Shown here piece after piece: positions 5,195 through 55,632 of a stretch of 64,000 bases of DNA. The stretch spans positions 22,792 to 86,791 of the IMG/VR virus record IMGVR_UViG_3300027870_000001; one strand, written 5' to 3'. Under the pieces are notes generated by a model that worked only from the letters and a program-made list of their open reading frames with translations, made no database searches and was not told the DNA's origin. Numbering within the stretch: the stretch's first letter is position 1; each line of letters begins with the position of its first letter. Source of the DNA: a virus. The position numbers and the translations under genes were made by a program.

Positions 5195-5926
5195 ATGACC
5201 ACCGAAACCCGAACCCCGAACGCCAACGAGTCGAACGTCGGCCGACAGTGGAAGCTCACCCGCCGCCGCCTCGACCGGATCCTCACCGCCGTCGCCGCCG
5301 GTGCCCCCATGTCGAGCGCCGCGAAAGCAGCAGGCATCGGCACCTCCACGTTCTGGAAGTACCACGCCCTCGGCCTCACCCTCCTCGACAAGGCCATCGC
5401 AGACGGCGTCATCGACCCCGACCTCCTCGAACTCGCAGAGGAGAACGCCCAAGGGCTCGCAGACGCAGCCGCCAACGCCCAAGGCGAGAAGGCCGCACCG
5501 GTCAACCCGACGAAGGTCCTCGGCCGCTACCTGTCCGACGCCGGCTGGCCCGAAATCGACTGTCTGTTCGTGGAATTGGTGGACGGAGTGGCCCGTGCCG
5601 AAGCGGAGGGCGAGCTGCGCCTCGTGACTCTCGTGTCCCGTCATGCGGAGAAGTCCTGGCAGGCCGGGATCGCGCTGCTGTCGCGGCGGTGGCCTGAGCG
5701 GTACCGGGAAGGTGTGGAGATCACGGGGGAGGGCGGCGGTCCGATCCACGTCGCGACGGATGCGGAGCTGGCCCGACAGTTGCGTGATGACCCGGAGGCG
5801 CGTCGGCTGTCGTCGGAGCTGTTGGCTCGGGTGACGCCGTCGGCCCCGGTCGGGACCCCGGCTATCGTCGACGACGACGACCCGGACGGCGAGGACGACG
5901 GTGACGCTGCTCCTCCCGGAGAGTGA
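5195..5926 (+). CDS. terS: Terminase small subunit
   Basis: N-terminal HTH (SSAAKAAGIGTSTFWKY), WQAGIALLSRRWPERY, EITGEGGGPI; directly upstream of TerL. Confidence 0.75.
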   Translation: MTTETRTPNANESNVGRQWKLTRRRLDRILTAVAAGAPMSSAAKAAGIGTSTFWKYHALGLTLLDKAIADGVIDPDLLELAEENAQGLADAAANAQGEKAAPVNPTKVLGRYLSDAGWPEIDCLFVELVDGVARAEAEGELRLVTLVSRHAEKSWQAGIALLSRRWPERYREGVEITGEGGGPIHVATDAELARQLRDDPEARRLSSELLARVTPSAPVGTPAIVDDDDPDGEDDGDAAPPGE

Positions 5927-8708
5927 TGGGCTCCAGAACGCTGACCGGCTGATCCGGCTGCCGGTCACCCCGGCGCATCTGGGGGTGCGGGCGTCGCGCG
6001 GGCATTGGGTGTACCCGCGGCATATCCAATATCTGAACGAGTACATGGTCGACTTCCTCCTCGACCCTGATGAGCGGTTCGTGATCATCGAGCTCCCAGT
6101 TCGCCACGGGAAGGAGACGCGGGTCGATGAGCCGGTGCTCACGCCGTCGGGCTGGTCGACGATGGGCGCGCTCCAACCCGGAGACGAGGTGTTCGGCCCC
6201 GACGGGCGTCCGACCGAGGTGCTGTGGCGGTCGCCGGTCAACCGGTCGGCTCCGAAGCTGCGGGTGGCGTTCACGGACGGCACCTCGATCGACGTGCACC
6301 CGGCGCATGAGTGGACGGTGTGGTGCCGAGCGAACCGGAAGTGGCGGACCTACGAGACGCAGCACCTGGCCCGGTTGAAGCTCACCTCGGGGCAGGGCCC
6401 GACGGGCAGGTACCTGTACCAGCTCCCGCAGCGGTCCCCGGTCGAGTTCCCCGACGCCGAACTCCCGGTCGACCCGTGGCTGATTGGCTACTGGATCGGA
6501 GACGGCGGCGCAGAGAACGCCTACCTCACCGCGGGCGGCGACGCCGACGAGATCATCGAGATCCTCACCGCGGTGGGTGAAGCACCGCACATCAGGTTCG
6601 CTCACAAGGCGACGGGCTGCGAGTACCTCCGGGTGCCGACGTTGCGTCGCCGGCTGTGGGAGATCGGCATCCGCGGCGTCAAGAAGATCCCCGAGGTGTG
6701 CTGGACGTCGAGCGTCGCGCAACGCCGGGCGCTGCTCCAGGGGATCGTTGACTCCGACGGGCACGTCGAGCGCGGGTCGGGCCGGGTGCGGGTCGTGGGC
6801 CACGACGAGGCCCTCGTCCGCTCGGTCGCCACCTTGGCCCGCACCCTCGGCCACCGGGCCACGATCTACACCGAGACGGACACCAGGCCCCCGCACCTGA
6901 TCGTCAACCGTGACGGCTCGACCCAGATGATCGCCACCGCCGGCACCCGCTGGGTCTGCTCATGGACCCCGACCGATGGCCTCCCCCCGGGCCGGTTGGC
7001 CCGCAAGACCACCGCCCGACCGGCGCGCCGCCAGGAACGGATCGCCATCGCCTCGATCACCGAGGCCCCCCCGGCGGACGGGGTGTGCATCCAGGTCGAT
7101 CGGTCCGACGGGCTGTTCCTCGTCGGACGGGAGCTGATCCCGACCCACAACTCTTGGTTCATCTCGAAGTACCTGACGGCGTGGCACGTCGGGTGTTGGC
7201 CGAACAAGAACGTGCTCCTCACCTCGTACAGCGACACCTTGGCCAAGGGGTTCTCCCGCGATGCCCGGATGATCTTGGAGGAGTACGGCCCGGACCTGTT
7301 CGGGGTGAAGGTGCGTGGGGACTCCAGGTCGGTGAACCGGTGGGAGATCGCGGATCACTTCGGTGGGTTCAAGGCCAGCACCCTGTACGGGTCGATCACT
7401 GGTGTCGGCGGCGATCTGATCGTGATCGACGACCCGGTGAAGGACGCGAAGGCGGCGCACTCGGTCAACGCCCGTGAGGCCCTGTGGGAGTGGTACCAGG
7501 AAACGCTGCGTGGCCGTCTGGAGCCGGGCGGGAAGATCATCGTGGTCATGTCCCGCTGGCATGAGGACGACCTCGTCGGTCGGCTTCTGGCCCACTCTGA
7601 GTCGGACCCGGAGGCGGACCAGTGGGAGAGGATCCGGTTGCCGGCGATCGCGGAACCCGGGCCGGATGAGCCCGAGTTCAAGATGCCGATCGAGGTGCTG
7701 CGCGAGGTCGGCTGGACCGACGAGATGGGCCGTCAGGCGGGGGAGGCGTTGTGGCCTGAGCGGTGGCCGGTGAAGCGGCTGCGTCGGATCAAGGCGTCGG
7801 TGTCGGCGGTGTCGTGGGAGTCGAACTATCAGCAGCGTCCGACGGCCCGCGAGGGCGACGTGTTCAAGACGCACAACTGGAAGTACGTGGGGGCTCTGCC
7901 GGCGGCGGTTGGGCCGAAGCGGATGATCCGCCGCTATGACCTCGCTGACGACGGATCCGACTACGCCGCGACGTCGCTGCTCGGCTGGCATGAGGGACGG
8001 ACCTACATCATCGACGTGCGCCGCACGAAAGGCGGGTCGGCGCACGTCCGCCGGTTCTTCCGGGCCGCGGCGGTGGAGGACCGCCAGAAGTATGGGCGTG
8101 GCATCGAGCAGATCATCGAGCAGGAGCCGGGGTCGGCCGGCAAGACGATCGCTGACCAGTACGTGGCGACGGTGTTCGCCGGGTTCCGGGCCAAGAAGCT
8201 CACCACCTCCGGGTCGAAGGAGCTCAACGCGGAGGGCCTCGCCGCCCAGCAGGAAGCCGGCAACGTGTACCTCGTCGGGGTCGGCACCGAAACCGACGGC
8301 AGCGTGCGACCGGCTCACTGGTGGGACGACTACAAGGAGGAGGCCCGCACCTTCCCCCGTGGCGCGAACGACGACATGATCGACACGTCGTCCCAGGCGT
8401 ACAACGACCTCGCCGCACGGCTGACCCAACGGGTGAAGGGCCGCGCGGTGACGAAGGCTGGCGCGTCAGGTCGTGGCGGTGCGGTCACGAAGGCGAAGAC
8501 GGTCCAGCGGGGCGCGACCTCCTCGTCGAAGGGCAAGCCGGTGGTGCCGCAGATCGAGGCCGAGGTCGAGGACATGCCGGGCCCGGAGGAGGATGCCCCG
8601 GAGGAGTCGACGGTGATGCCGTCGGCGCCGGCTGCGCCTCGTCGGACCCCGTTGAAGGGCGGCACCGGGCCGGGTCAGCGGCGGAAGCCACCGAAGAAAC
8701 GCCGGTAG
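5901..8708 (+). CDS. terL: Terminase large subunit (intein-containing)
   Basis: Spliced Walker A PVRHGK|S, Walker B IVIDDPVKD, MSRWHEDDLVG, YQQRP, FPRGANDDMID nuclease motif. Confidence 0.92.
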   Translation: MTLLLPESDGLQNADRLIRLPVTPAHLGVRASRGHWVYPRHIQYLNEYMVDFLLDPDERFVIIELPVRHGKETRVDEPVLTPSGWSTMGALQPGDEVFGPDGRPTEVLWRSPVNRSAPKLRVAFTDGTSIDVHPAHEWTVWCRANRKWRTYETQHLARLKLTSGQGPTGRYLYQLPQRSPVEFPDAELPVDPWLIGYWIGDGGAENAYLTAGGDADEIIEILTAVGEAPHIRFAHKATGCEYLRVPTLRRRLWEIGIRGVKKIPEVCWTSSVAQRRALLQGIVDSDGHVERGSGRVRVVGHDEALVRSVATLARTLGHRATIYTETDTRPPHLIVNRDGSTQMIATAGTRWVCSWTPTDGLPPGRLARKTTARPARRQERIAIASITEAPPADGVCIQVDRSDGLFLVGRELIPTHNSWFISKYLTAWHVGCWPNKNVLLTSYSDTLAKGFSRDARMILEEYGPDLFGVKVRGDSRSVNRWEIADHFGGFKASTLYGSITGVGGDLIVIDDPVKDAKAAHSVNAREALWEWYQETLRGRLEPGGKIIVVMSRWHEDDLVGRLLAHSESDPEADQWERIRLPAIAEPGPDEPEFKMPIEVLREVGWTDEMGRQAGEALWPERWPVKRLRRIKASVSAVSWESNYQQRPTAREGDVFKTHNWKYVGALPAAVGPKRMIRRYDLADDGSDYAATSLLGWHEGRTYIIDVRRTKGGSAHVRRFFRAAAVEDRQKYGRGIEQIIEQEPGSAGKTIADQYVATVFAGFRAKKLTTSGSKELNAEGLAAQQEAGNVYLVGVGTETDGSVRPAHWWDDYKEEARTFPRGANDDMIDTSSQAYNDLAARLTQRVKGRAVTKAGASGRGGAVTKAKTVQRGATSSSKGKPVVPQIEAEVEDMPGPEEDAPEESTVMPSAPAAPRRTPLKGGTGPGQRRKPPKKRR
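6114..7151 (+). mobile_element. Class-3-type intein (346 aa) with LAGLIDADG homing endonuclease, inserted in TerL Walker A
   Basis: Block A ETRVDEPVLTPSGW; HPAHEW; LAGLIDADG-like WLIGYWIGDG and LLQGIVDSDG; block F VCIQVD; ends PTHN followed by Ser. Confidence 0.88.
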
Positions 8709-10311: not shown

Positions 10312-10334
10312 ACTGTCACCCCTCGTGCTACAGT
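10312..10334 (+). promoter_or_regulatory. Repeat promoter, leaderless start at 10342
   Basis: ACTGTCACCCCTCGTGCTACAGT, 7 nt to ATG. Confidence 0.8.
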
Positions 10335-19362: not shown

Positions 19363-19385
19363 ACTGTCGCCGGAACAGGTAGCAT
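19363..19385 (+). promoter_or_regulatory. Repeat promoter variant driving putative ncRNA-1
   Basis: ACTGTCGCCGGAACAGG-TAGCAT. Confidence 0.6.
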
Positions 19386-19389
19386 CGGA

Positions 19390-19486
19390 GAGCTGGTGGG
19401 AGTGAGTGAACAACTGCCCGCCCGTGGAGACACTGGCATCCCAGCCCGCAAGGGGTTGGAGTGGACAGCACTACTCCCGCCAGCTC
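19390..19486 (+). ncRNA. Putative structured ncRNA-1 (about 95 nt; long basal stem, three-way junction, two GNRA tetraloops)
   Basis: GAGCTGGTGGGAGT (19390-19403) pairs with ACTCCCGCCAGCTC (19473-19486); GTG-GAGA-CAC and CCAGCCC-GCAA-GGGGTTGG hairpins; own promoter and terminator. Confidence 0.65.
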
Positions 19487-19500
19487 ACCCCAGGAACGAC

Positions 19501-19534
19501 GAAGGCCCCGGGGGTCGCACGGTCCGGGGCCTTC
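19501..19534. terminator. Hairpin between convergent transcripts (probable bidirectional terminator)
   Basis: GAAGGCCCCGG...CCGGGGCCTTC 11-bp stem. Confidence 0.7.
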
Positions 19535-19566
19535 GGTCGATGTCCGCTGTGGACGGTAGCTGGCGG

Positions 19567-22328: not shown

Positions 22329-22351
22329 ACTGTCTCACGTCGTGCTACAGT
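22329..22351 (+). promoter_or_regulatory. Repeat promoter, leaderless start at 22359
   Basis: TTGCGT-18-TACAGT; ACTGTCTCACGTCGTGCTACAGT, 7 nt to ATG. Confidence 0.8.
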
Positions 22352-22358
22352 GACAGGC

Positions 22359-24045
22359 ATGACGAACCCTCCCTCGACCGCCTCCCTCGCCCAACTCCGC
22401 GACGGCACCGCAACCGACCGCAGCTACGGCGCCCCCTGGGTCACCCTCAACGCGCTCGCCGCCGACCTCGACGCCGTCCTCATGGAGATCGACTTCGACC
22501 ACGTCACCTGGCGCAACCCCGACGGCGACAACTTCGGCCCCGAAGCCGGCGTCATCGCCCTCGGCAAAGGCAAGCGCACCGTCGCCCGAGCCCGCATGAC
22601 CGACGGCCACGCCGACGCCCGCCTCCGCCTCACCGACTGACCCACCAACCCCAACGAAAGGCCCTGCCCCATGACCACCACCACCGACCCCGAGACGATC
22701 GACGTAGCTGGCCTCTCCGCCGCCATCGTCGGCAACACCCCCACCGACTTCGAGTACGACGACGAGAAGTGGCCCGAGAGCTGGGACTACGTCCCCGTGG
22801 TCCGCTGCGAACACTGCCGGGCGGTGATCATCGACACCGACGACCACCTGTCCACCATCGTCGACGAGAACGGCACCCCGGTCCTCCGAGACGGCGCCGA
22901 GGTCCACGCCACCGAGGCCGACAAGGACGACTGGGACCTGGCCGACGGCGAGGAGTGGGACGACTGCGACGCCGCCGACCAGGATGCCAGCGACCTCGAT
23001 GCCGGCGGGCCGTGGATGAACTACTGGTACCCGGCGTGGCTCCGCTTCGGGGAGACGGCCGAGGATCTGGCGCGAGCCACGGTCGACTCGGTCCTCGTGG
23101 TCGTCACCCGGAACGATGGCGATGAGGTCGGGTTCGCGCTCGGCGGTGGCGGCATGGACCTCTCGTGGGAAATCTGCGAGGGCTACATGTCGGCCGGGCT
23201 CCTGCCGCCGTTCACCTTCTGCGACCTGCCCGCCATGGGCGGTCTGTCCGCGACCCCGAAGACCCTGGCGGTCATCGCCGCTTGCAAGCGCACGGCCGAG
23301 TGCATCGCTGACCGGGCCCGGTACACGACGGACCGCCTCGACCGGTTGCAGGCCGACCTGCGGCCGGTCACCGAGGAGGGCTGATGGGCTTCGCCTCGGA
23401 CGACACGCTCGCTGCGATCGACATGAAGGTCGAGGAGCTGATCGACGCCGCCCAGACCGCGGCCCGTCGCTACAGCATCCCGGCCCGCTGGCCTCGCCTC
23501 GCCGCGGTGGTCGACGGGTTCCAGGTCACCGCCGAGATCGACCCGGACGGCGAGGTCGAGAACGACCGCTGGGTCGACCTCACCTCCTACTGGGCCGAGG
23601 CGGTCGGGCCCGACGGGATCGTGCACCGCGGCCGGTTCAGCGGCGGCGAAGTCACCTGGGGTGCCGAGTGAAGCCGTCGGTGTGCCCGCTCTGTGGACGC
23701 AAGTTCGGGTCCGAGATCATCTGCCTCGGCCACGCCACCTCCGAGCACGGTCCGCGCGAGATCCTCGCCAAGCTCCGTGAGGTGCTCGACCCGGTGCCCC
23801 ACCAGCTCGCCGGCCGCTGGACGACCGAAGGCGGCGCCGAGGCGTGGGTCGACGGGGTCCTCATGCTCACGGCCCCCGAGCCCGGCGTGTCGTACATGGT
23901 CGCGATCGACCGGTCGGTCCACGTGTGGCTGATCTGGCACCCGGACACGGGCGGGCTCATGGCCACCACTCACGGGTCGGTGCTCGCCCGCACCACCTAC
24001 GAGCTGCCCGAGCCCGACCGGATCTACCGGTTCACTGAGGCGTGA
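22359..24045 (+). other. Hypothetical CDS 22359-22640, 22671-23384, 23384-23671, 23668-24045
   Basis: Closely spaced chain; GAAAGG RBS before 22671. Confidence 0.6.
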
Positions 24046-31254: not shown

Positions 31255-31889
31255 ACCGCGACCCGGCGAAGAACCGGGCATGGCAGGACCGCAGCCGTGC
31301 TCGGGCCCGCGAGAAACGCAACGCTCGACCTGGGGTCGAGGGTCAACCTCACGTCGACATCGAACCACCGCCGACCCCGAAGCTGACCCGTCCGGTGCCG
31401 CCCCCTCCACCACGGCCGACCGATGTCGAGCCGGTGGCCAAGCTGTTCACCGACGCCGACACCCAACCCCGCGACGTGGTCCGCGCCGAACGGATCTCCA
31501 TCGACCGGGTGTGCCAGGCCCGCGGGTTCACGACGGTGCCGTGCGACCGTGGCCAGGAGGTCGACGAGATGCAAGGCCGAGGCCGGCGACCGGGGTCGGA
31601 GCTGGTCCTCGCTGAGACGCAGCTCCTGTGCCACACCTGCCACGCGCTCAAGACCCGTCACCCGCGGATGGCCGGGCTGCTCGGCCTGTACGGGCCGGTC
31701 GAGCAGGAACGGCGGATCACGGTCGAGGGCCGCGACAAGGTGGAGGAGGCGCTCGTCGAGTGGGTGCGCCGGAAGTCGACGGCGAGGGGGATCGACGCGG
31801 GGTCCCCGGTGTGGTCGGGGGTGGTCGGGTTGGCGGTGCGACGGGACGCGACCGGGGTGTTGGCGTTGATCGCTCCGCAGGTTGCGTGA
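31248..31889 (+). CDS. HNH-like endonuclease (degenerate)
   Basis: VCQ...PC...EVDEMQGRGR...QLLCHTCHALKT. Confidence 0.55.
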   Translation: MLNRDPAKNRAWQDRSRARAREKRNARPGVEGQPHVDIEPPPTPKLTRPVPPPPPRPTDVEPVAKLFTDADTQPRDVVRAERISIDRVCQARGFTTVPCDRGQEVDEMQGRGRRPGSELVLAETQLLCHTCHALKTRHPRMAGLLGLYGPVEQERRITVEGRDKVEEALVEWVRRKSTARGIDAGSPVWSGVVGLAVRRDATGVLALIAPQVA

Positions 31890-31910
31890 CTGTCGCCCGT
31901 TGGCTACAGT
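31889..31910 (+). promoter_or_regulatory. Repeat promoter driving putative ncRNA-2
   Basis: TTGCGT-17-TACAGT; ACTGTCGCCCGTTGGCTACAGT. Confidence 0.75.
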
Positions 31911-31917
31911 CATTGGT

Positions 31918-31990
31918 GCCCCCCCACTTCCGCCGGTGGGGTGCGGGCGACGGCATCGGATCCACCTCACCCGCCGAGGTGGACGATGTC
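31918..31990 (+). ncRNA. Putative two-hairpin sRNA with CCGCC loops (ncRNA-2)
   Basis: Hairpin 31918-31948 (loop TTCCGCCG) and 31952-31990 (loop ACCCGCC); starts 7 nt after the -10 element. Confidence 0.55.
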
Positions 31991-31993
31991 ACT

Positions 31994-32030
31994 GAGGGTG
32001 CCCCCGGTTGATACGGCCGGGGGCACCCTC
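31994..32030 (+). terminator. Terminator-like hairpin
   Basis: GAGGGTGCCCCCGG/CCGGGGGCACCCTC perfect 14-bp stem. Confidence 0.75.
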
Positions 32031-32049
32031 GCGAACCGGCACTTGTGCA

Positions 32050-32072
32050 ACTGTCTCACGCCGTGCTACAGT
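32050..32072 (+). promoter_or_regulatory. Repeat promoter, leaderless start at 32080
   Basis: TTGTGC-18-TACAGT, 7 nt to ATG. Confidence 0.8.
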
Positions 32073-33476: not shown

Positions 33477-34129
33477 TGCCGCTCCCCCTGTACCTCGCCA
33501 CCCCATCGAGCGCCCCGGCCCGTGACCTCATGTCGGCCGGTGGCCTCGGCCAGATGGTCACCCCCTACGCCGGGAACGCCCGAGTCCCTGGCGCTCTGTG
33601 GGCGCTCGACAACGGGTGCTTCTCCACCGCCGGCTGGACCCCGGACCGGTGGCTCGCCACCCTCGACAAGCTGTCCGAGGGCCCGATCCAGACCGAGGCC
33701 GACGCCCTGGCCAACGGATGGTGGCAGCCGTGCCTGTTCGCCGTCGTGCCCGACGTCGTCGGTGACGCTGCCGCCACCGACTCGATGTGGGTGCGCTGGT
33801 TCCGGGCCGTGATCCGCAACGGGTTCCGACCCGCCTACGTCGCCCAGGACGGGGCCGGGCCCGGCTGCCTGCCCCCGGCGGCGACCGCCCTGTTCATCGG
33901 CGGATCGACGGAGTGGAAGCTCGGCGTCGAGGCCCGACGGATCGTGGCCGAAGCCCACCGCCGTGGCATGTGGGTCCATATGGGCCGGGTCAACAGCGAG
34001 CGCCGGCTCCGGTACGCCTCCGACATCGGCTGCCACTCGGTCGACGGCACGTTCCTTGCGTTCGGCCCGGACATCAACTTGCCCCGCCTCCAGTCCTGGC
34101 TGAACCCCGCGCAGCCCAGCCTGTGGTGA
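33476..34129 (+). CDS. TGT/DpdA-like (7-deazaguanine transglycosylase-fold) protein
   Basis: WALDNGCF, VPDVVGD, AYVAQDG, FIGGSTEWK, VHMGRVNS, SVDGT resemble TGT-family catalytic motifs. Confidence 0.6.
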   Translation: MPLPLYLATPSSAPARDLMSAGGLGQMVTPYAGNARVPGALWALDNGCFSTAGWTPDRWLATLDKLSEGPIQTEADALANGWWQPCLFAVVPDVVGDAAATDSMWVRWFRAVIRNGFRPAYVAQDGAGPGCLPPAATALFIGGSTEWKLGVEARRIVAEAHRRGMWVHMGRVNSERRLRYASDIGCHSVDGTFLAFGPDINLPRLQSWLNPAQPSLW

Positions 34130-36039
34130 CGGCCTCCCGTCGCCGGGTCGGCCTGTCGAACCCGTCGTGGTGGATCCTCCAGTTCCCGTTCGACCGGGAA
34201 CTGATCGCAGAGGTCCGGTCCATGGGCGCCGTCGCCGTCCCCCGCTCCGACAAGTGGACGCTCCCAGCGAACCCTGGCTACGCGGCCCAGCTTGTCGGGC
34301 TCGGGTTCACCGGGCACGGCCACCCGACGGGCGCGACTCTCGACGAGGTTGCCGCCACAGCGGCCCGGCTGATCGCCCTGTCCTCCGCGTTGGAACCGCC
34401 GCCCGAGTTCGAGGTCCCCGGTCTGACCCGCACCCTCGCCCCCCATCAGGCGGCGGCGGTCGCGTACGTCCAAGAGCAACGCCGGGTGATCGTCGCTGAC
34501 CCGATGGGCGCGGGCAAGACGTTCGAGGGATGGGCAGCGGTCCACGCCTGCGACGCCTACCCGGCGCTGTGGGTGTCCCCGGCGAAGCTCCGCACGAACG
34601 CCGCGGTCGAGGCCCTCGACGCGCTCCCCACCGGCACGAGAGTCGCGGTCGTGCTGCCCCGCTCCACCGAACCAGCGAAGGTCGAACGGGCTCGTGCCCG
34701 CGGCATCCTCCCGATGCTCGGCCGACCCCGGCCCGGCGCCGCCGACGTGTACGTCACCGGGTACCCGCTGTTCCACACCGAGCTGGCCTGGTGGAAGGGC
34801 GTCGGGCTCAAGGGCCTGATCCTCGACGAGTCGCAGCTCTGCAAGTCCAGGGACCGGATCAAGGGCTGCCCGATCTGCCGGGCCCCGATGCGACGAGGCG
34901 GGGTGTGCTCCGGGCCCGGCCGGCACCCGGTCCTCCCCGACCGGCGGATCGACCTGTACGCGGTGCTGTGGACCCGCGCCGCCGACGAGCTCATCGACTC
35001 GATGGGCCCGGACCCGATGATCCTGGAGCTGTCCGGGACCCCGAACAAGAACACGAACGCCGACTGGCCAACCCAGCTCGACCTCATCCGCCGGCTGCAC
35101 CAGTTCGGCGGTGAGCGCAACGTGCTGTTCCGGTACTGCGACCCGATGCGCGTCGCCGGCCGATGGCAGTTCCGGGGCGGCTCGAACTACGCCGAGTTCG
35201 ACCGGCTCAAGCGGGCGACGGGGTACGTGCACCGCACGAGGGAAGCGATCCACCCGAACCTGCCGCCCCTCGTCAGGTCGCCGCTGCTCCTCGACCTCGA
35301 TGACGACCTCCTCGTCGACTACCGGGCAGCCGAACGGGACCTGATCCGGTTCGCCGGCCAACGCGCAGCGAAGCTCGCCGCCGCAGCCGGGGAAGACCCC
35401 GGGTCCGCCTCGTGGGAGGCAAGGTTGCGGGCCGAGGCCGGGTTCCATCTCGTGCGCCTCGGCACCCTCGCCCGCCTCGCCGCCCTGGCGAAGGTCCCAG
35501 CCGCGGTCGAGTGGGTGACCGACTTCCAGGCAGCGAACCCGGAGGCGAAGCTGATCGTGTTCGCCCACCACCGCGACGTCTGCGCCCAGCTCGCCGCAGC
35601 GTTCGACTGTCCGAGGATCGACGGCTCCACGACGGCCGACCCACAGGACATCAAGGACCGGTTCCAGTCGGACCCGTCGATGCTGGTCCTGGTCGTGGGG
35701 ATCACCGCCGGTGGCGTCGGCCTCACCTTGACCGCGGCGCACGACGAGTTGTTCGTCGAGCAGGTCCACACGGCCGGCGATCACGACCAGGCCGAGTCGA
35801 GGGCCTACGCCCGGATGAACGATCCGCATGGGGTGACGGCGACGTACCTGTTGGCGGCGGACACGATGGACGAAGACCAGTGGCTGTCGCTCGCAGCGAA
35901 GCGGGTGACGACCGAGGCGGGCCGCTCGGGCGACCCGGAGGCGATCAGGAAGGCCGAGGAGTTGAAGCGTCTGGGGCCGGCGGCGGTGGCGGGGGATCTC
36001 CTCGTGCAGCTCGCACGGCGGTCGGGGGTCGTGGGCTGA
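34126..36039 (+). CDS. SNF2-family helicase
   Basis: LAPHQ, ADPMGAGKT, LILDESQ, LSGTP, IVFAHH, GGVGLTLT, QAESRAYAR. Confidence 0.88.
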   Translation: MTASRRRVGLSNPSWWILQFPFDRELIAEVRSMGAVAVPRSDKWTLPANPGYAAQLVGLGFTGHGHPTGATLDEVAATAARLIALSSALEPPPEFEVPGLTRTLAPHQAAAVAYVQEQRRVIVADPMGAGKTFEGWAAVHACDAYPALWVSPAKLRTNAAVEALDALPTGTRVAVVLPRSTEPAKVERARARGILPMLGRPRPGAADVYVTGYPLFHTELAWWKGVGLKGLILDESQLCKSRDRIKGCPICRAPMRRGGVCSGPGRHPVLPDRRIDLYAVLWTRAADELIDSMGPDPMILELSGTPNKNTNADWPTQLDLIRRLHQFGGERNVLFRYCDPMRVAGRWQFRGGSNYAEFDRLKRATGYVHRTREAIHPNLPPLVRSPLLLDLDDDLLVDYRAAERDLIRFAGQRAAKLAAAAGEDPGSASWEARLRAEAGFHLVRLGTLARLAALAKVPAAVEWVTDFQAANPEAKLIVFAHHRDVCAQLAAAFDCPRIDGSTTADPQDIKDRFQSDPSMLVLVVGITAGGVGLTLTAAHDELFVEQVHTAGDHDQAESRAYARMNDPHGVTATYLLAADTMDEDQWLSLAAKRVTTEAGRSGDPEAIRKAEELKRLGPAAVAGDLLVQLARRSGVVG

Positions 36040-36151
36040 GGTCCACGGATCGCCCCCCGGATCGTTCTGTGACGCTCTGGTGGCCGGGTCGGGGTCATCT
36101 CTGCCACCGCGAGGGGTGAGGGGCCAGGGGGACGCCGCGACGATCTCCCCG

Positions 36152-36189
36152 ATTGGGGGTTGTGCGACTGTCTCACGTCGTGCTACAGT
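36152..36189 (+). promoter_or_regulatory. Repeat promoter driving putative ncRNA-3; 38-bp exact duplicate of 50347-50384
   Basis: ATTGGGGGTTGTGCGACTGTCTCACGTCGTGCTACAGT. Confidence 0.85.
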
Positions 36190-36196
36190 CAGTTGT

Positions 36197-36638
36197 GAGG
36201 GCAAGCAAGCCACACCGCCCTCCAGCGCACCTTGAGAATCGAGAACCGGGCGAGGGTGAGACGCCCTCCCTGGGAGCCACGAGCTCCTCACCCGGGCGAT
36301 GCGTCGCCTGGGGTAACCCAGCCAGGGATAGGCCAGGATGGAACAACAACACCGGCTCTCGATTCACAACTGCACAGATCGAGGACCCGGCCAACTGGCC
36401 GGCCCGTGGAGGCACCATCCACGTGACCCTGCGACCCTGCCCCTGACGGCTAACGACCACCAGCCACCTGCGAACGGTGGAGGAACCCTGAACGAAGGGC
36501 AGGCGAGGGCACACGGTACGGGTGAGTGAACACGGAGCACGGCCACGAGCCGAACCGAGGTAACCGGGGAGAGACGTCCGAACCGGGGAAGTAGGGGAAG
36601 CCACGAGCCAGCCGGCCAGTTCGCCGGGTCCTCGATCT
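36197..36638 (+). ncRNA. Putative large two-domain structured ncRNA-3 (about 440 nt)
   Basis: 5' hairpin 36197-36222; stem 36236-36249/36352-36365; 27/28-bp stem 36376-36403/36611-36638; GCCACGAGC x3; no credible ORF. Confidence 0.72.
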
Positions 36639-36643
36639 ACGAC

Positions 36644-36669
36644 CTGCCACCGCTCCCGGGCGGTGGCAG
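36644..36669 (+). terminator. Terminator-like hairpin after ncRNA-3
   Basis: CTGCCACCGC/GCGGTGGCAG 10-bp stem. Confidence 0.7.
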
Positions 36670-36684
36670 CTTCGCGCCCCGGCG

Positions 36685-36707
36685 ACTGTCGCCCGTCATG
36701 CTACGGT
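36685..36707 (+). promoter_or_regulatory. Repeat promoter, leaderless start at 36716
   Basis: ACTGTCGCCCGTCATGCTACGGT, 8 nt to ATG. Confidence 0.75.
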
Positions 36708-36715
36708 CGACACCC

Positions 36716-37398
36716 ATGAGCAACCACCCTCGACGCCGAGGCCGGCCCTCCGCCGCAGCCAAGGCCAGCGCCTCCCAACGCACCCACCGCCGCGACCCCG
36801 CCCCCACCGAAACCGGCAGCCGAGGACAGGAAGGCCGACGAGTCGACGTCCTCTACGAAGGCCGCGTCGTCGGCTCCGCGATCCACGTCCCCGACCCGGC
36901 CGGGCTCAGCCCCGGCACCCTCCTCGACTCCAGGATCACCGACCCCGACCTCGCGATCCTCCTCGCCCGCGGCGAGAAGCTCTCCCTCACCGCCGACATC
37001 ACCCCACCCAAGCCCAACGAGGGGAGCTGACGTGCCCGACCCCAACCTCGACCCCGCCTACCACGAGGAACGCGCAGCGAGGCTCCTCACCGACATCGAG
37101 AACGCCTACGACCGGGACGCCATGCTGCGCCCGGAGAAGCGCACCGTCACCTCGGCCTGGGTCAAGACCCGGTCAGCGCGTGCCCAGGCCCACGCCACCC
37201 TGGCCCTGGCGCTCCGTCTTGGCAGCAAGGAGGCGTGACCTCATGCCCAGGACCGATACCGACACCGTGCACCTCGCCTGCCAGTTCTGCGACTACCGGA
37301 TCCAGGCGACGATCGAGTGCGGCAAGCCGCGCATGGCCAAGCACGTCCGACAGCACCACGTCGGCCAGAAGGTGCTCCGCCGGCCGAGGTGCCGGTGA
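36716..37398 (+). other. Hypothetical CDS 36716-37030, 37032-37238, 37243-37398 (C2H2-like)
   Basis: Closely spaced chain; CQFC...HVRQHH. Confidence 0.5.
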
Positions 37399-40152: not shown

Positions 40153-40175
40153 ACCGTCTCACGTCGTGCTACAGT
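40153..40175 (+). promoter_or_regulatory. Repeat promoter, start at 40183 (alternative 40222)
   Basis: ACCGTCTCACGTCGTGCTACAGT, 7 nt to ATG. Confidence 0.8.
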
Positions 40176-50346: not shown

Positions 50347-50384
50347 ATTGGGGGTTGTGCGACTGTCTCACGTCGTGCTACAGT
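50347..50384 (+). promoter_or_regulatory. Repeat promoter, start at 50392 (alternative 50431)
   Basis: Exact 38-bp duplicate of 36152-36189; 7 nt to ATG. Confidence 0.85.
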
Positions 50385-51259: not shown

Positions 51260-52999
51260 ATGGATCCGGTCACCACGACCCCCGACGAGATCAAGCTGCT
51301 CGACGACACCCAGATCGGGGACCTTCGGTCCAAGATCGCAGAACGCGCTGAGGAGCTCAAGGAGTCCGACGCCGTCGCAGACATCGAGGAGCTGGAGCTG
51401 CTCGGTGACCTGGGCGAGGCCCTCGACAACGAGGCCGGCCACCGTTACCAGGAAGCCGCAGACCGCGCCGACCGTCGCCAGAAGGCGATGGACCGGCTCG
51501 CTCCGCCGGCCGACCCCGACGCCGTCGACCCGGAGGATGCTCCGGTCGACCCCGAGGCCGTCGACCCCGACGTGGATCCCGAGATCCCCGGCGAGCCCGC
51601 GGTCGACCCCGCCCCGGAGGATGCTCCGATCGTGGCCGGTGACCAGGCCCCCGTGCCGGTCGCTGCGTCGCTGTCGCCCTCCGCGAAGGCGACCCTCGCC
51701 GCGCTGAACAAGCGTCAGCGCACCACCAAGCCCCCGGAGGCCCCCAAGCCCGACGAGTACAGCTCGGTGTTCGTCGCCACCGCCCACGCCGGTGGCAAGA
51801 CCCCGGAGGGCACCGTCCTCACCGGGATCGAGCAGATGGCTGACGTCATCGCCAAGAAGCGCCTCGGGTTCAAGAACATCCCCGACGGGGCCAAGGAGTT
51901 CCTGTCCATCGCGACGGCGGAGAAGCCGGGCACCGGCCTGATCCTCTCCCACGACGCGATGGAGAACTTCCACGTGATCCAGGAAGTCCGCGAGGCCGGC
52001 GGCGTGAACGGTGGGGGCGCCCTCGTGGCGTCCGGTCCGCTCTGCGCCCCCCCGACCCCGATGTACGACTTCTTCCGGGTCGCGGAGGCCCAGAACCCGG
52101 TCGAGCAGGGCCTCGCCGTCCTCCAGGCGCCCCGCGGTGGCGTCCGGTTCATCGTCCCCCCGGACTACACCACGGCCGCTGGTGCGATCGGCATCGAGGG
52201 TGTCGACTACGACATCTCCGACCCGGACGATCCCGAGGACAAGCCGTGCCTGCACGCCGACTGCGCCGCGATCGACGAGGAGTTCGTCGGGGCCATCTCG
52301 CAGTGCGTCACCTTCGGCAACCTCCAGTACAAGACCTTCGCTGAGCAGGTCGCCGCGTTCCTGGAGGACGTCGCCGTCGCCTTCGCCTCCCGCAAGGAGG
52401 GCTTCTACCTCGACTACATCGACGGCAAGTCGACCAACGTCACCGGGATCGAGGTGGGCTACGGCTTCTGGCGTACCCACCTCTACAACCTGGACCTGGC
52501 GGCGGTCGGCTACCGCAAGCGTCGGGGCATGAAGCGTGGTGCCCGCCTGACGGTGATCGAGCCCGACTGGGCTCTCGACGCCGCCAAGACCGACATGGTC
52601 AACGACCAGTCGCTGGGCCTCAACTTCGCCTCGATCCCGGACAGCGCCGTCACCGACGCCTACCGGCAGCGGGGCCTCGACGTCATCTGGGCCAACGACT
52701 CGGCCACCGGCCGGGCCCAGAAGTTCAACGGTGCCCAGAACGCGGGGGCTCTCAACAAGTACCCCGGCACCATCCAGAGCTACATCTTCGCCCCGGGCAC
52801 GTTCGTCCGTCTCGATGGTGGCTCGCTGGACGTCGGCCTCGTTCGGGACTCGGTCCTGAACAAGACCAACGACCTCCAGTTGTTCATGGAGGAGTGGATC
52901 GGGGCCGCGATGCTCGGCCTGGAGTCGGTCCGCCTGCACCACACGGTGTGCCCGTCCGGTGGTTCGCCCGCCGCGGCCACCCTGTACGCCTGCGCCTGA
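51260..52999 (+). CDS. Major capsid hexamer-like protein with N-terminal scaffold-like region (cluster B type)
   Basis: Acidic coiled-coil N-terminus; ALVASGPLCAP...YD, RGGVRF, KPC, GTFVRLDGGSLDVGLVRDSVLNKTND..FME. Confidence 0.8.
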   Translation: MDPVTTTPDEIKLLDDTQIGDLRSKIAERAEELKESDAVADIEELELLGDLGEALDNEAGHRYQEAADRADRRQKAMDRLAPPADPDAVDPEDAPVDPEAVDPDVDPEIPGEPAVDPAPEDAPIVAGDQAPVPVAASLSPSAKATLAALNKRQRTTKPPEAPKPDEYSSVFVATAHAGGKTPEGTVLTGIEQMADVIAKKRLGFKNIPDGAKEFLSIATAEKPGTGLILSHDAMENFHVIQEVREAGGVNGGGALVASGPLCAPPTPMYDFFRVAEAQNPVEQGLAVLQAPRGGVRFIVPPDYTTAAGAIGIEGVDYDISDPDDPEDKPCLHADCAAIDEEFVGAISQCVTFGNLQYKTFAEQVAAFLEDVAVAFASRKEGFYLDYIDGKSTNVTGIEVGYGFWRTHLYNLDLAAVGYRKRRGMKRGARLTVIEPDWALDAAKTDMVNDQSLGLNFASIPDSAVTDAYRQRGLDVIWANDSATGRAQKFNGAQNAGALNKYPGTIQSYIFAPGTFVRLDGGSLDVGLVRDSVLNKTNDLQLFMEEWIGAAMLGLESVRLHHTVCPSGGSPAAATLYACA

Positions 53000-53787: not shown

Positions 53788-55632
53788 ATGGTGTTCCCGC
53801 ACGCTGGGCAGTACGGCCCCGACGGGCTCGCCAACCGCAACGGCCGGCCGCTGCTGGCCACGCCGTTCGAGGTGCACCCTCGGGGCGACGAAGGGCTGGC
53901 GACCCTGTACTCGGATCGTGACCGGTCCGACACGGTGGCCAACCCGTCGGCCACCGACTCGGCCGGCAACGTGACGGTGTTCGCGGAGCCGGGCGCATAC
54001 GACCTGATCTGCGATGGGCAAGTCCTCCCGATCGTGATCGCTCCAGACCCGGAGGATCTCGAACCGGGCGAGGCGGGCACCACCAGCCTTGTTCGTGACG
54101 ACGTGTTCGTTGGGTATGGCACCAAGAAGAAGCAGTGGGAGGGCGTGCCGATGACGGACCCCGACAGTGGTATCACTGTCTCGGAGTTCGTCTACCCCGG
54201 CGCCGGGATGGCGTCGTTCTTCCCGGGCTACGGGGTGCTCGGTTGCCCAACGATCTTCTCGGACCATGTGGACCAGGCGTTCTTCTCAGGCTCGTTGTTC
54301 GGTGGGGTCGGCACGTACGACGGAGACACGCTCGTCACGCTGCCCGAGTGGTCCCGCCCTGACTCTGATGTCACGCTGGAATGGTGCAACGGGTTCACCG
54401 GCGAGTTCGTCAAGATCGACGACAACGGATTCCATCGGGTCGGTGAACGAGTTGAGCTGTCCGGTGTGCTCGGCGTAGACGGGACGATCAAGCTGGCGGA
54501 AGGTGGTATCACCATCCCGGAATGGGGCGACGAGGAGCCCGACGCTTTCGTGTTCAACTTCCGGTTCCTCGGTTGGCAGTCCGCTGGCCTACTCCAACCC
54601 GCTCCACCGAGTGATGTCGGGGTCTATCTCGCAGGCGGCATCATCGCAGACACCGACCTCGTTGGGGGCGACTTCACGACTGTGGAACTACTCAACGGGG
54701 ACGGGTCTTCGGTCTTCGGCCCCGGCCTTCCCCGGGAAGCCATCGCTGGTGGTGTCTATCTGATCTTGACGGGGGCCAACGTCGCGCGATGGCTGATCAC
54801 AGAATCCGGTCCTTGCGTGAAGCTGGCCGAGCCATCGACCCAGAACTGCATCGTCAAGGTGGCGGCTGGGAACTTCACGGGCACCGACTTCCTGCCTGTC
54901 GAGATGCTGGGCGCAGGCACGATCATCCCCGACACAGGCGGTCGTCTTACCACCACCCTCGACCGCTTCGTTCCAGACAACGATCTCTCTGATCTCGTCA
55001 CCCAAGACGACCTCACCGCCGGTCTTTCCAACAAGGTGACAACCGAAGATGTTGCGACTGCTGTGTCTGGATTGGCGACGACCGAATATGTGGACACTGC
55101 GAAGTCAGATGCCGAGCAGTACGCAGATGGGGCTGACACCGCATTGCTCATGGGGATCAAGTTCCCTGGCAAGCAGCTCTACTCCGGTCTGTGGCCCGAC
55201 GTAGACCCCGATGGTGTCGCTCAAGACATCATCACCACCTGGCAGGTGCCACTGATCAACGCCGCCAACAACAGCCTCGACGTCGGGTACATCAACTTCG
55301 TCGCAGAGACCGCAATCACTCGGTTGGTGGCGCAGGCGGTCTGTTGGACCGACGACGCAGTACAGGCCGACGATTCCACCCTCGGTCCTGGTGCAAGTCT
55401 CCGCTGGGCCTTCCCCGACAGTGAAGGCGGGACCATTGTCCCGTTCCGAGTCATCTTGTGTGGCAACAGCTCACGTCGTCTGCAACAGATGGAAGCCACG
55501 TTCGTCACGGTCCCTGGCCAGGCGTACCGGATGCAGTGGCTCGTTGATGGTGGTGCCGACTCACCTGGCCTCCACGGATGGTTCTACGGGGCACCCGCTG
55601 CCCTCGCTACCATCAACATCTACTCCGCATAA
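53788..55632 (+). CDS. Putative fibre/decoration protein with compositionally foreign C-terminal part
   Basis: N-terminal LATLYSD...ANP..TDSAGNVTVFAEPG anchor-like module; many T/A-ending codons downstream. Confidence 0.5.
   Translation: MVFPHAGQYGPDGLANRNGRPLLATPFEVHPRGDEGLATLYSDRDRSDTVANPSATDSAGNVTVFAEPGAYDLICDGQVLPIVIAPDPEDLEPGEAGTTSLVRDDVFVGYGTKKKQWEGVPMTDPDSGITVSEFVYPGAGMASFFPGYGVLGCPTIFSDHVDQAFFSGSLFGGVGTYDGDTLVTLPEWSRPDSDVTLEWCNGFTGEFVKIDDNGFHRVGERVELSGVLGVDGTIKLAEGGITIPEWGDEEPDAFVFNFRFLGWQSAGLLQPAPPSDVGVYLAGGIIADTDLVGGDFTTVELLNGDGSSVFGPGLPREAIAGGVYLILTGANVARWLITESGPCVKLAEPSTQNCIVKVAAGNFTGTDFLPVEMLGAGTIIPDTGGRLTTTLDRFVPDNDLSDLVTQDDLTAGLSNKVTTEDVATAVSGLATTEYVDTAKSDAEQYADGADTALLMGIKFPGKQLYSGLWPDVDPDGVAQDIITTWQVPLINAANNSLDVGYINFVAETAITRLVAQAVCWTDDAVQADDSTLGPGASLRWAFPDSEGGTIVPFRVILCGNSSRRLQQMEATFVTVPGQAYRMQWLVDGGADSPGLHGWFYGAPAALATINIYSA

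What the first reader, a model, noticed from the sequence alone, without database searches (positions are those of the whole stretch)
36197..36669. About 440-nt two-domain RNA with a 28-bp closing helix and repeated GCCACGAGC motifs
Seen: a 5' hairpin GAGGGC/GCCCTC. Domain A is closed by GAATCGAGAACCGG/CCGGCTCTCGATTC (36236-36365). Domain B is closed by a 27/28 complementary helix (36376-36403 with 36611-36638) enclosing about 205 nt. GCCACGAGC recurs at 36276, 36542 and 36600 (CACGA loop in at least the first two). GGTAACC (GUAA tetraloop) is at 36312 and 36559. There are several GGA-loop mini-hairpins (GCC-AGGGATA-GGC at 36321, CCA-GGA-TGG at 36333). Established: GGA-loop arrays characterise CsrB/Rsm sponges, and long closing helices characterise 6S/Ms1 RNAs and RNase III substrates. 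Inference: a multivalent protein-binding RNA, possibly processed into two RNAs of about 130 and 260 nt.
Basis: partly seen in the sequence, partly recalled or inferred. Interest (0 to 1): 0.8.

Follow-up and report, generated by a model that had tools for sequence, protein, structure and literature searches.

The report
New self-pairing phage RNA family
The flagged stretch is a gene for a folded non-coding RNA whose 263-base core belongs to an uncatalogued family, shared with about 200 cultured mycobacteriophages and 28 metagenomic phage contigs, and a loop that changes sequence between phages but always stays self-complementary suggests that two copies dock together.

Summary
Window 36040-36715 is non-coding. 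It lies behind one of about 20 copies of the phage's own promoter and before a GC hairpin, and both long inverted repeats are real (27/28 and 16/18).

It belongs to a conserved structured-RNA family that I found in about 201 Bixzunavirus (cluster C1) mycobacteriophages and 28 IMG/VR contigs. The family is absent from Rfam 15 and from the literature I could search.

Family features:
- a 24-30 bp closing helix of unrelated sequence in most members;
- a rod of five helices with strong covariation (92% paired against 67% shuffled; 24 of 31 pairs with double changes);
- two almost invariant junction strands;
- a hairpin loop holding a 6-nt self-complementary word, in nine variants and with no exception.

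The last feature is the signature accepted for symmetric kissing loops in OLE and GOLLD RNAs, so homodimerisation is the most likely mechanism. Function is unknown.

The CsrB, 6S and Ms1 analogies fail. The GCCACGAGC repeats and GGA loops are not conserved. "Domain A" is a lineage-specific 5' extension. No expression data exist.

The parts
36152..36189 (+). Promoter copy: CTGTC-N11-GTGCTACAGT with an extended -10 TGn-TACAGT. Predicted start of transcription is about 36196-36197.
   Evidence: The motif occurs 20 times on the + strand. 13 copies are followed by ATG 6-8 nt after the hexamer, as expected for leaderless mRNAs. This copy is 38/38 identical to the one at 50347-50384.
36197..36222 (+). 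5' hairpin, 6 bp with a 14-nt loop holding GGCAAGCAAG
   Evidence: The word GGCAAGCAAG recurs in the leader of L035, and CAAGCAAGC in the leader of L052.
36232..36369 (+). Domain A: a lineage-specific 5' extension closed by a 16/18 helix, holding three hairpins
   Evidence: Interior z = -1.9 on + and -0.5 on -. It is not matched by the family model. There are only colinear 8-10-mers with the leader of L035.
36376..36403 (+). P1 5' arm of the family core (the 28-bp closing helix)
   Evidence: The equivalent helix is 24-30 bp in most members, with unrelated sequences.
36404..36535 (+). Arm I. P2 is 36404-08 with 36531-35. P3 is 36413-18 with 36522-28. P4 is 36424-29 with 36507-13. P5 is 36436-42 with 36497-503. 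P6 is 36460-68 with 36476-83.
   Evidence: RNAalifold on MAFFT alignments. Model R1 scores 129 bits here.
36443..36459 (+). Invariant junction strand CUGACGGCUAACGACCA, between P5 and P6
   Evidence: Identical in 24 of 24 aligned members apart from two C/U positions.
36484..36496 (+). Invariant junction strand AACCCUGAACGAA, between P6 and P5
   Evidence: 11 of 13 positions are identical in 24 of 24 members.
36536..36610 (+). Arm II: junction AGCAC, a weak P7, the purine-rich internal loop GAGGUAA / GGAAGUA, and the P8 hairpin
36564..36586 (+). P8 hairpin: stem CCGG/CCGG and loop GGAGA-GACGUC-CGAA. The self-complementary hexamer lies at 36573-36578.
   Evidence: Every member has a self-complementary hexamer at this place, in nine variants, and the stem covaries.
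36611..36638 (+). P1 3' arm
36644..36669 (+). Terminator-like GC hairpin (10 bp perfect, 6-nt loop, no U tract)
   Evidence: The consensus terminator scan did not report it because it lacks a T run.
36686..36718 (+). Next promoter copy and the leaderless ATG (36716) of the downstream gene 36716-37030
   Evidence: GC3 0.88, positive codon score

Best explanation
The region is a stand-alone gene for a non-coding RNA of about 480 nt.

Transcription. It is transcribed rightward from a copy of the phage's own promoter, with a start near 36197, and it ends at the GC hairpin at 36644-36669.

Architecture. The 3' 263 nt (36376-36638) are a member of an uncatalogued family of phage RNAs with a three-armed fold.
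- P1 is a long closing helix.
- Arm I is a rod of five helices. Its tip carries a large internal loop made of two nearly invariant strands.
- Arm II ends in a hairpin (P8) whose loop displays a 6-nt self-complementary word, GACGUC in this phage.

Mechanism. The most likely one is that two RNA molecules join through a symmetric loop-loop (kissing) duplex at P8. The invariant internal loop then serves as the working surface, either as a binding site for a conserved cellular partner or as a tertiary or catalytic core.

Shown: the RNA-level structure, family membership, and the palindromic-loop covariation. Inferred: transcription, dimerisation, trimming of P1 by RNase III, and any partner. The 5' hairpin and domain A are a variable leader specific to this lineage.
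For: Non-coding gap with promoter and hairpin.

Homologues:
- about 201 cluster C1 mycobacteriophages, where the region is unannotated or called as hypothetical ORFs;
- 18 IMG/VR loci found through one conserved word;
- 10 more found through the other word.

Model R1 was trained on 9 sequences. It finds all 14 others at E <= 1e-9 and exactly one copy in the window.

Covariation:
- MAFFT-only alignments give 45 of 54 and 22 of 31 pairs with compensatory changes.
- On 23 distinct sequences, 92.3% of cells pair, against 67% in shuffles and 30-39% when the partner is slid. 24 of 31 pairs show double changes.

Strand. There are 45 G.U pairs against 9 A.C in arm I. The element lies in the sense orientation of the flanking genes, with promoter-like sites upstream in other members.

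P1. It is 24-30 bp in most members with unrelated sequences.

P8. Nine different self-complementary hexamers occur with no exception, one of them only through G.U. The stem covaries. The near-identical elements L064 and L066 differ by UGGCCA against UCCGGA.

Precedent. Palindrome-to-palindrome switches in a loop were taken as proof of cross-chain pairing in OLE L9.3 and GOLLD L21a (PMC12286853).

Other support. No conserved neighbouring protein. The thermodynamic fold of the window's own sequence agrees with the family structure, with P1 probability 0.99 and P5 about 0.78.
Against: - No transcript data exist for this phage or, as far as I could find, for the C1 phages.
- Dimerisation is inferred from sequence only.
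- The interior of domain B folds no better than shuffles, so the single sequence would not have proved structure.
- In P1, A.C mismatches (9) outnumber G.U pairs (4). That is unusual for an RNA helix and remains unexplained.
- Members were found through exact words, which inflates the apparent invariance of those words. Each word was, however, free to vary in the scan anchored on the other.
- The nearest relative of this phage that I could read (L031, helicase 46% identical) has no such RNA at the syntenic site or in the 17.5 kb held.
Confidence: 0.7

Rival explanations
1. The element is a cis-acting part of a longer transcript rather than a free RNA. It would be a processing or stability module, or an antitermination module. 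The long P1 stem would be an RNase III site that shapes the messages of the neighbouring genes. The terminator-like hairpin would be read through into gene 36716.
For: - P1 is a near-perfect duplex of 24-30 bp, long enough for RNase III, often with one central mismatch.
- The element always lies in the sense orientation between genes.
- The hairpin at 36644-36669 has no U tract.
- Two other short structured units in this phage sit between a promoter copy and the next promoter.
Against: - The downstream gene has its own promoter and is leaderless.
- The flanking genes differ in every locus, so no common message is being regulated.
- Two invariant junction strands and a palindromic loop are far more than a processing stem needs.
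Confidence: 0.12
2. The RNA is a packaging or assembly RNA that works like phi29 pRNA. It would multimerise by loop-loop contacts and act on the capsid or the packaging motor late in infection.
For: - It is phage-encoded, with a terminal helix formed by the 5' and 3' ends and an intermolecular loop.
- Its promoter is 38/38 identical to the one that heads the head-gene module. The major head protein gene is at 51260-52999.
Against: - No Rfam pRNA match.
- The gene lies in the replication module here and among small early-looking genes in the C1 phages.
- The carriers are large tailed phages unlike phi29.
Confidence: 0.06
3. The element acts at the DNA level, as a replication origin, a cruciform, or a MITE-like insertion with terminal inverted repeats.
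For: - It sits next to the helicase gene.
- Both strands fold equally well.
- P1 has almost no G.U pairs.
- The 5' arms of domains A and B share ATCGAGRACC(C)GG.
Against: - The inner helices hold 45 G.U against 9 A.C, which fits one strand only.
- One hexamer is self-complementary only through G.U.
- The orientation is fixed relative to transcription.
- No target-site duplication was seen (own reading of the flanks) and there is no second copy of the arms in the genome.
- No matches in plasmids.
- There is no AT-rich unwinding stretch or iteron array.
Confidence: 0.04
4. One reading: a multivalent protein sponge of the CsrB/Rsm kind, or an RNA-polymerase-binding RNA of the 6S/Ms1 kind.
For: - Repeated GCCACGAGC, three times, confined to this RNA.
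- A few GGA-containing loops.
- Long helices.
Against: - No match to any Rfam family at E <= 10.
- The repeats and GGA loops are not conserved in the 23 other members.
- There is no central open-promoter-like bubble.
- Absence of CsrA from Actinobacteria is recalled knowledge and was not tested here.
Confidence: 0.03

Closest known systems
GOLLD and ROOL RNAs (phage and prophage 'ornate' RNAs that form RNA-only nanocages; PMC12286853)
   Same: Phage-encoded, stand-alone, and highly structured, with no conserved protein partner and unknown function. Self-association goes through kissing loops. In GOLLD L21a this is supported by palindrome-to-palindrome covariation. A few members lie near tRNA or tmRNA genes.
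   Different: Much smaller (230-410 nt against 580-800+ nt). There is no sequence or model similarity. Only one symmetric loop is evident, which predicts dimers rather than cages. The tRNA neighbourhood is seen in only 3 of about 23 loci.
OLE RNA loop L9.3 (symmetric kissing loop of the OLE dimer)
   Same: A hairpin loop whose internal word switches between palindromes across homologues, a pattern read as cross-chain pairing.
   Different: OLE is a bacterial RNA of about 600 nt from extremophilic Bacillota, with protein partners. There is no homology.
phi29 pRNA (Rfam RF00044)
   Same: A phage RNA with a helix formed by its two ends. It multimerises through loop-loop pairing that covaries among relatives (own knowledge).
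   Different: pRNA uses two different complementary loops to build rings on the portal. Here a single self-complementary loop is present. There is no Rfam match, and the phage type and genome position differ.
HIV-1 dimerisation initiation site (own knowledge)
   Same: A 6-nt self-complementary word flanked by purines in a hairpin loop. Natural variants (GCGCGC, GUGCAC) keep the symmetry, and GUGCAC is also one of the variants seen here.
   Different: The HIV-1 site is a 9-nt loop in a viral genomic RNA. Here the loop is 13-15 nt in a small non-coding RNA.
RNase III processing stems (rRNA precursors, T7 early RNA sites; own knowledge)
   Same: A duplex of more than 20 bp formed by sequences that flank a functional RNA, sometimes with a central mismatch.
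   Different: Cleavage is untested here. The conserved length of P1 could equally serve as a structural strut or as end protection.
CsrB/RsmZ, 6S and Ms1 RNAs
   Same: Non-coding RNAs of a few hundred nucleotides with many hairpins or long helices.
   Different: No model match. The defining GGA-loop arrays and the central bubble are absent or not conserved.

Membership tests
New phage RNA family defined here (model R1 plus P1 and P8) | Arm I helices P2-P6 with the two invariant junction strands | tested here: met
   Window 36402-36537 scores 129 bits, E 1e-28, full length. Both strands are present.
New phage RNA family defined here (model R1 plus P1 and P8) | Long closing helix P1 formed by the two ends | tested here: met
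   28 bp at 27/28. Most members have 24-30 bp.
New phage RNA family defined here (model R1 plus P1 and P8) | P8 hairpin with a 6-nt self-complementary word followed by CGA(A/U) | tested here: met
   CCGG / GGAGA-GACGUC-CGAA / CCGG at 36564-36586
CsrB/RsmZ-type CsrA sponges | Match to the family models, and many conserved GGA motifs in hairpin loops | tested here: not met
   No Rfam hit at E <= 10. The GGA-loop hairpins lie in domain A, which is not conserved.
CsrB/RsmZ-type CsrA sponges | CsrA/RsmA protein in the host or the phage | not tested
   The host is unknown (freshwater metagenome). Absence of CsrA from Actinobacteria is recalled knowledge only.
6S RNA / Ms1 | Match to the family models, and a long rod with a central open-promoter-like bubble | tested here: not met
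   No Rfam hit. The family consensus is a three-armed fold.
GOLLD / ROOL / OLE | Match to Rfam covariance models | tested here: not met
   No hit in the window, in Dandelion or in 12 member loci
GOLLD / ROOL / OLE | Homo-oligomer held by kissing loops | not testable with these tools
   Only the sequence signature (palindrome covariation) is available.
phi29 pRNA | Rfam model match, and two mutually complementary loops (R and L) | tested here: not met
   No Rfam hit. A single self-complementary loop is present instead.
tRNA / tmRNA | ARAGORN or Rfam detection | tested here: not met
   None in the window or the genome. tmRNA-like genes lie near the element only in L043 and L053.
RNase III substrate | dsRNA of at least about 20 bp | tested here: met
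   P1 is 28 bp. Cleavage itself cannot be tested here.
MITE / insertion element | Terminal inverted repeats with a target-site duplication, and dispersed copies | tested here: not met
   No second copy of the arms in the genome and no matches in plasmids or phages beyond the RNA core. I saw no duplication in the flanks.

The most novel reading that the evidence does not exclude
This would be a previously unrecognised class of phage RNA that assembles into symmetric dimers, or larger RNA-only bodies. The kissing-loop word would act as a lineage 'bar code': near-identical elements differ by UGGCCA against UCCGGA, which would keep the RNAs of co-infecting relatives apart. The near-invariant 17 x 13-nt internal loop would be a catalytic core or a grip on a universal host machine such as the ribosome. 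The RNA would be made from the same promoter as the head genes.
Probability: 0.25. Interest if true: 0.85.

Novelty: new variant of a known kind. Interest (0 to 1): 0.72.

Why it matters
Large structured phage RNAs of unknown function, such as GOLLD and ROOL, have become a focus since cryo-EM showed that they self-assemble. Very few classes are known, and none sits in an easily manipulated phage-host pair.

This family is compact (about 260 nt). It has a clean signature of self-pairing and a strikingly invariant internal loop. It is also present in about 200 sequenced, cultured Bxz1-like mycobacteriophages that grow on M. smegmatis and can be engineered. That makes deletion, loop-swap, pull-down and structural experiments directly feasible.

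The result also shows that a region annotated as hypothetical ORFs, or left blank, in hundreds of GenBank phage records is an RNA gene.

Tried and rejected
- Rfam at gathering and at E <= 10 on the window, on Dandelion and on 12 member loci: nothing relevant.
- tRNA and tmRNA scans of the window and the genome: none.
- blastn at the default E-value against phages and plasmids: nothing. Only relaxing E to 10 exposed the C1 phage match.
- Relatives through the flanking helicase:
  - IMG/VR holds only proteins 25-30% identical.
  - One metagenome contig (L031) has a helicase 46% identical, but no RNA at the syntenic site or in the 17.5 kb held.
  - Genome contigs gave only a Chloroflexia MAG.
The rest of the L031 contig could not be fetched.
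- A promoter-word scan of IMG/VR gave only chance singles.
- Sequencing runs: one DNA run from a freshwater metagenome, probably the source sample. No RNA holder is listed, so expression could not be examined.
- The consensus sigma-70 and terminator scan found nothing. The phage's own promoter motif and a U-less hairpin are not covered by it.
- Coding readings were rejected:
  - a leaderless GTG at 36195 (83 codons), by GC3 0.70 and a negative codon score;
  - the minus-strand ORFs shared between loci, because they overlap the conserved RNA and the variable hairpin shifts the frame.
- A tmRNA-tag reading of GCU-AAC-GAC was rejected for the same frame reason.
Arm II was analysed by script.
- Literature searches for the conserved word, for C1 phage ncRNAs and for new large phage RNAs found no description. 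One preprint could not be opened.
- Alignment of domain A and of the two other small RNA candidates to domain B gave only marginal scores, z about 2.4-2.8.

Full report
**Setting.** The window is bases 22792-86791 of an 86.8-kb IMG/VR virus record. CheckV rates it 96% complete. It is 70% G+C and almost all genes lie on the + strand. The only sequencing run that holds the stretch is a DNA run from a freshwater metagenome.

The finding lies between two genes. Upstream is an SNF2-type helicase gene (33787-36039; PHROG 62). Downstream is a small leaderless gene (36716-37030). Further right come a DUF2786 protein, an exonuclease and a ParB-like protein. The head genes start near 50.4 kb, with the major head protein at 51260-52999.

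**Checking the observation.**
- The 28-nt inverted repeat (27/28) is the strongest in the whole window.
- The gap 36040-36715 is non-coding. Real genes here have GC3 near 0.9. No frame in the gap does, and its ORFs have negative codon log-odds.
- The 479-nt stretch folds far better than shuffles (z = -5.9). So does the opposite strand (z = -6.3).
- The interior of domain B alone does not beat shuffles (z = +0.55). The interior of domain A gives -1.9 on + and -0.5 on -.

From this one sequence, then, only the long helices are beyond chance.

**Evidence for transcription (inferred).** The phage carries 20 + strand copies of CTGTC-N11-G(C/T)TAC(A/G)GT. In 13 of them an ATG follows 6-8 nt after the hexamer, and in three more a GTG. 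This is the arrangement of leaderless actinobacterial mRNAs.
- A perfect 10-bp GC hairpin follows at 36644-36669.
- The next promoter copy (36686-36707) then drives the ATG at 36716.
- The RNA's promoter is 38/38 identical to the copy at 50347-50384, which heads the head-gene module.

**The key result: domain B belongs to a conserved family.**
- Relaxing blastn to E <= 10 exposed a 52-nt match in about 200 cluster C1 (Bixzunavirus) mycobacteriophages. In Dandelion it lies in a 360-nt unannotated gap.
- Two blocks are identical over 21 and 14 nt and are separated by a hairpin of quite different length and sequence.
- Scanning IMG/VR for a 17-mer of the first block gave 25 loci, of which 18 are members. 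The other seven are a coding-sequence coincidence in contigs of 49-56% G+C.
- Scanning for the second block gave 10 further members in which the first block carries single C-to-U changes.
- Member contigs run up to 161 kb, and the loci read from them are 53-72% G+C.
- Among 50,697 cultured phage records, only the C1 phages match at blastn sensitivity.

**Structure.**
- *P1.* Most members are enclosed by a 24-30 bp helix that starts 60-72 nt before the first block. Its sequence is unrelated between lineages.
- *Arm I.* RNAalifold on plain MAFFT alignments recovers helices P2-P6, with 45 of 54 and 22 of 31 pairs showing compensatory changes.
- *Model.* A covariance model of arm I was trained on nine sequences (R1). 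It finds the 14 other members at E between 1e-9 and 1e-26. It finds one copy only in the window (36402-36537, 129 bits). It finds nothing in non-member loci or in L031.
- *Pair counts.* On 23 distinct sequences, 92.3% of cells pair. Shuffled partners give 67% and slid partners give 30-39%. 24 of 31 pairs have double changes. The covariation score is 0.59, against 0.15 for shuffles and 0.06-0.11 for slides. That alignment is fitted to the model, but the MAFFT-only results agree.
- *Strand.* In arm I, G.U pairs outnumber A.C mismatches 45 to 9. The element always lies in the sense direction of its neighbours, often with a TTGACA/TATAGT-like promoter upstream. This fixes the functional strand and argues for RNA rather than duplex DNA.
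- *Junction strands.* Between P5 and P6 lie two junction strands, CUGACGG(C/U)UAACGA(C/U)CA and A(Y)CCCUGAAYGAA. They are identical in 24 of 24 sequences apart from four positions that vary, almost only by C/U transitions.
- *Agreement.* The window's own thermodynamic fold agrees with the family structure.

**The self-complementary loop.** Arm II ends in a hairpin (P8).
- Its 3-6 bp stem covaries: CCGG/CCGG, CCAC/GUGG, AGGG/CCCU, CGC/GCG, CCCAGG/CCUGGG.
- Its 13-15-nt loop reads purines, then a hexamer, then CGA(A/U).
- The hexamer is self-complementary in every member, in nine versions: GACGUC (this phage, 36573-36578), UGCGCA, UGGCCA, UCCGGA, CUGCAG, UUGCAA, GUGCAC, AUGCAU, and GUGCAU, which is symmetric only through G.U.
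- L064 and L066 share P1 and differ at about seven positions in 268 nt by my reading of the two sequences. Four of those positions convert UGGCCA into UCCGGA.

A hexamer cannot pair with itself within one loop. Selection for symmetry therefore points to pairing between two molecules. The same argument, applied to palindrome switches in OLE L9.3 and GOLLD L21a, was confirmed by cryo-EM structures (PMC12286853). I therefore take homodimerisation through P8 as the most likely mechanism, at about 0.7, while noting that it remains an inference.

**What is specific to this phage.** The 5' hairpin and domain A (36197-36369) are not matched by the model. They share only a few colinear 8-10-mers with the leader of L035, and the linker word UCACAACU with L036. 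Leaders in other members differ in length and fold.

The two arms of domain A resemble the base of P1 (ATCGAGRACC(C)GG), which suggests a partial duplication.

**Context and function.**
- No protein family recurs next to the element. The only "shared ORFs" are artefacts that overlap the RNA itself.
- tRNA- or tmRNA-like genes lie nearby in three loci only. This phage has none.
- P1 is nearly all Watson-Crick (283 WC, 4 G.U, 9 A.C, 12 other), often with one central mismatch. That would suit RNase III trimming, end protection or a rigid strut. I cannot tell which.
- The function of the invariant loop is unknown. Its conservation across phages of very different G+C content suggests contact with something universal, or a catalytic or tertiary core.

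**Comparison with known systems.**
- It works most like the self-associating ornate RNAs (OLE, GOLLD, ROOL) and, more loosely, like phi29 pRNA and the HIV-1 dimerisation loop.
- It is not a member of any of these. No Rfam model matches and the architecture differs.
- The CsrB, 6S and Ms1 readings fail their defining tests.
- I found no paper describing the family. A large 2023 catalogue of candidate viral RNAs (PMC10690425) could include it unnamed; I could not check its data files.
Such RNAs may therefore be more common than the catalogues show.

**Verdict.** Its function is open. It is testable at once in cultured mycobacteriophages.

Noticed in passing
window 2071-50384 (20 sites; for example 10313-10334, 22330-22351, 32051-32072, 40154-40175, 50363-50384): A dyad-symmetric promoter-like motif, CTGTC-N11-GCTACAGT, occurs 20 times on the + strand, mostly 6-8 nt before a leaderless ATG. 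At least two sub-classes exist (TCTCACGTCGTG against TCTCGGATCGGC), which could be temporal classes or operator variants.
   Followed up: partly
window 36152-36189 and 50347-50384: These two promoter copies are 38/38 identical. One drives the RNA and the other heads the head-gene module, which hints at co-expression or a recent copy event.
   Followed up: partly
window 19363-19540: A second small structured unit lies behind a promoter-like site. It has a 14-bp basal stem and a strong terminal hairpin. It shares the words GUGAGUGAACA and CCCGUGGAGRCAC with the big RNA, where those words are the two strands of helix P3 and part of P2. The family model does not match it.
   Followed up: partly
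window 31889-32035: A third short unit (promoter copy, two hairpins, GC hairpin) is wedged just before the next promoter, which drives the ATG at 32080.
   Followed up: no
L034 1468-1874 (Dandelion NC_023696 about 23223-23629) and other C1 phage records: In GenBank C1 mycobacteriophage records the RNA region is either blank or covered by 'hypothetical protein' calls. In Dandelion the 3' part of the element overlaps the annotated start of gp71.
   Followed up: partly
L064 and L066 (P8 loop): These near-identical elements differ by a four-base switch from UGGCCA to UCCGGA in the kissing-loop word, as if pairing specificity were under diversifying selection.
   Followed up: partly
P1 helices of members (for example L041, L055, L054, L034, L037): A.C mismatches near the middle of the closing helix are more frequent (9) than G.U pairs (4). 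This is unexplained.
   Followed up: no
L043 10221-10616, L053 284-609, L051 629-712, and about 45 nt after the element in L035: tmRNA-like or tRNA-like genes, or T-arm-like words, lie a few hundred bases downstream of the RNA in a minority of member contigs.
   Followed up: partly
window 5901-8708: A 935-aa ORF carries a LAGLIDADG homing-endonuclease domain (residues about 262-337), which suggests an intein or a fused endonuclease in an early gene.
   Followed up: no
window 53788-55632: A 614-aa ORF lies in a low-G+C island (0.62 against 0.70) between the major head gene and the head-tail adaptor gene. It has no PHROG match.
   Followed up: no
window 15362, 26322, 29579: Three unrelated genes share an identical ribosome-site-plus-first-codons block (GGAGCCCCAAC-ATGACCGACCTGCCCC).
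   Followed up: no
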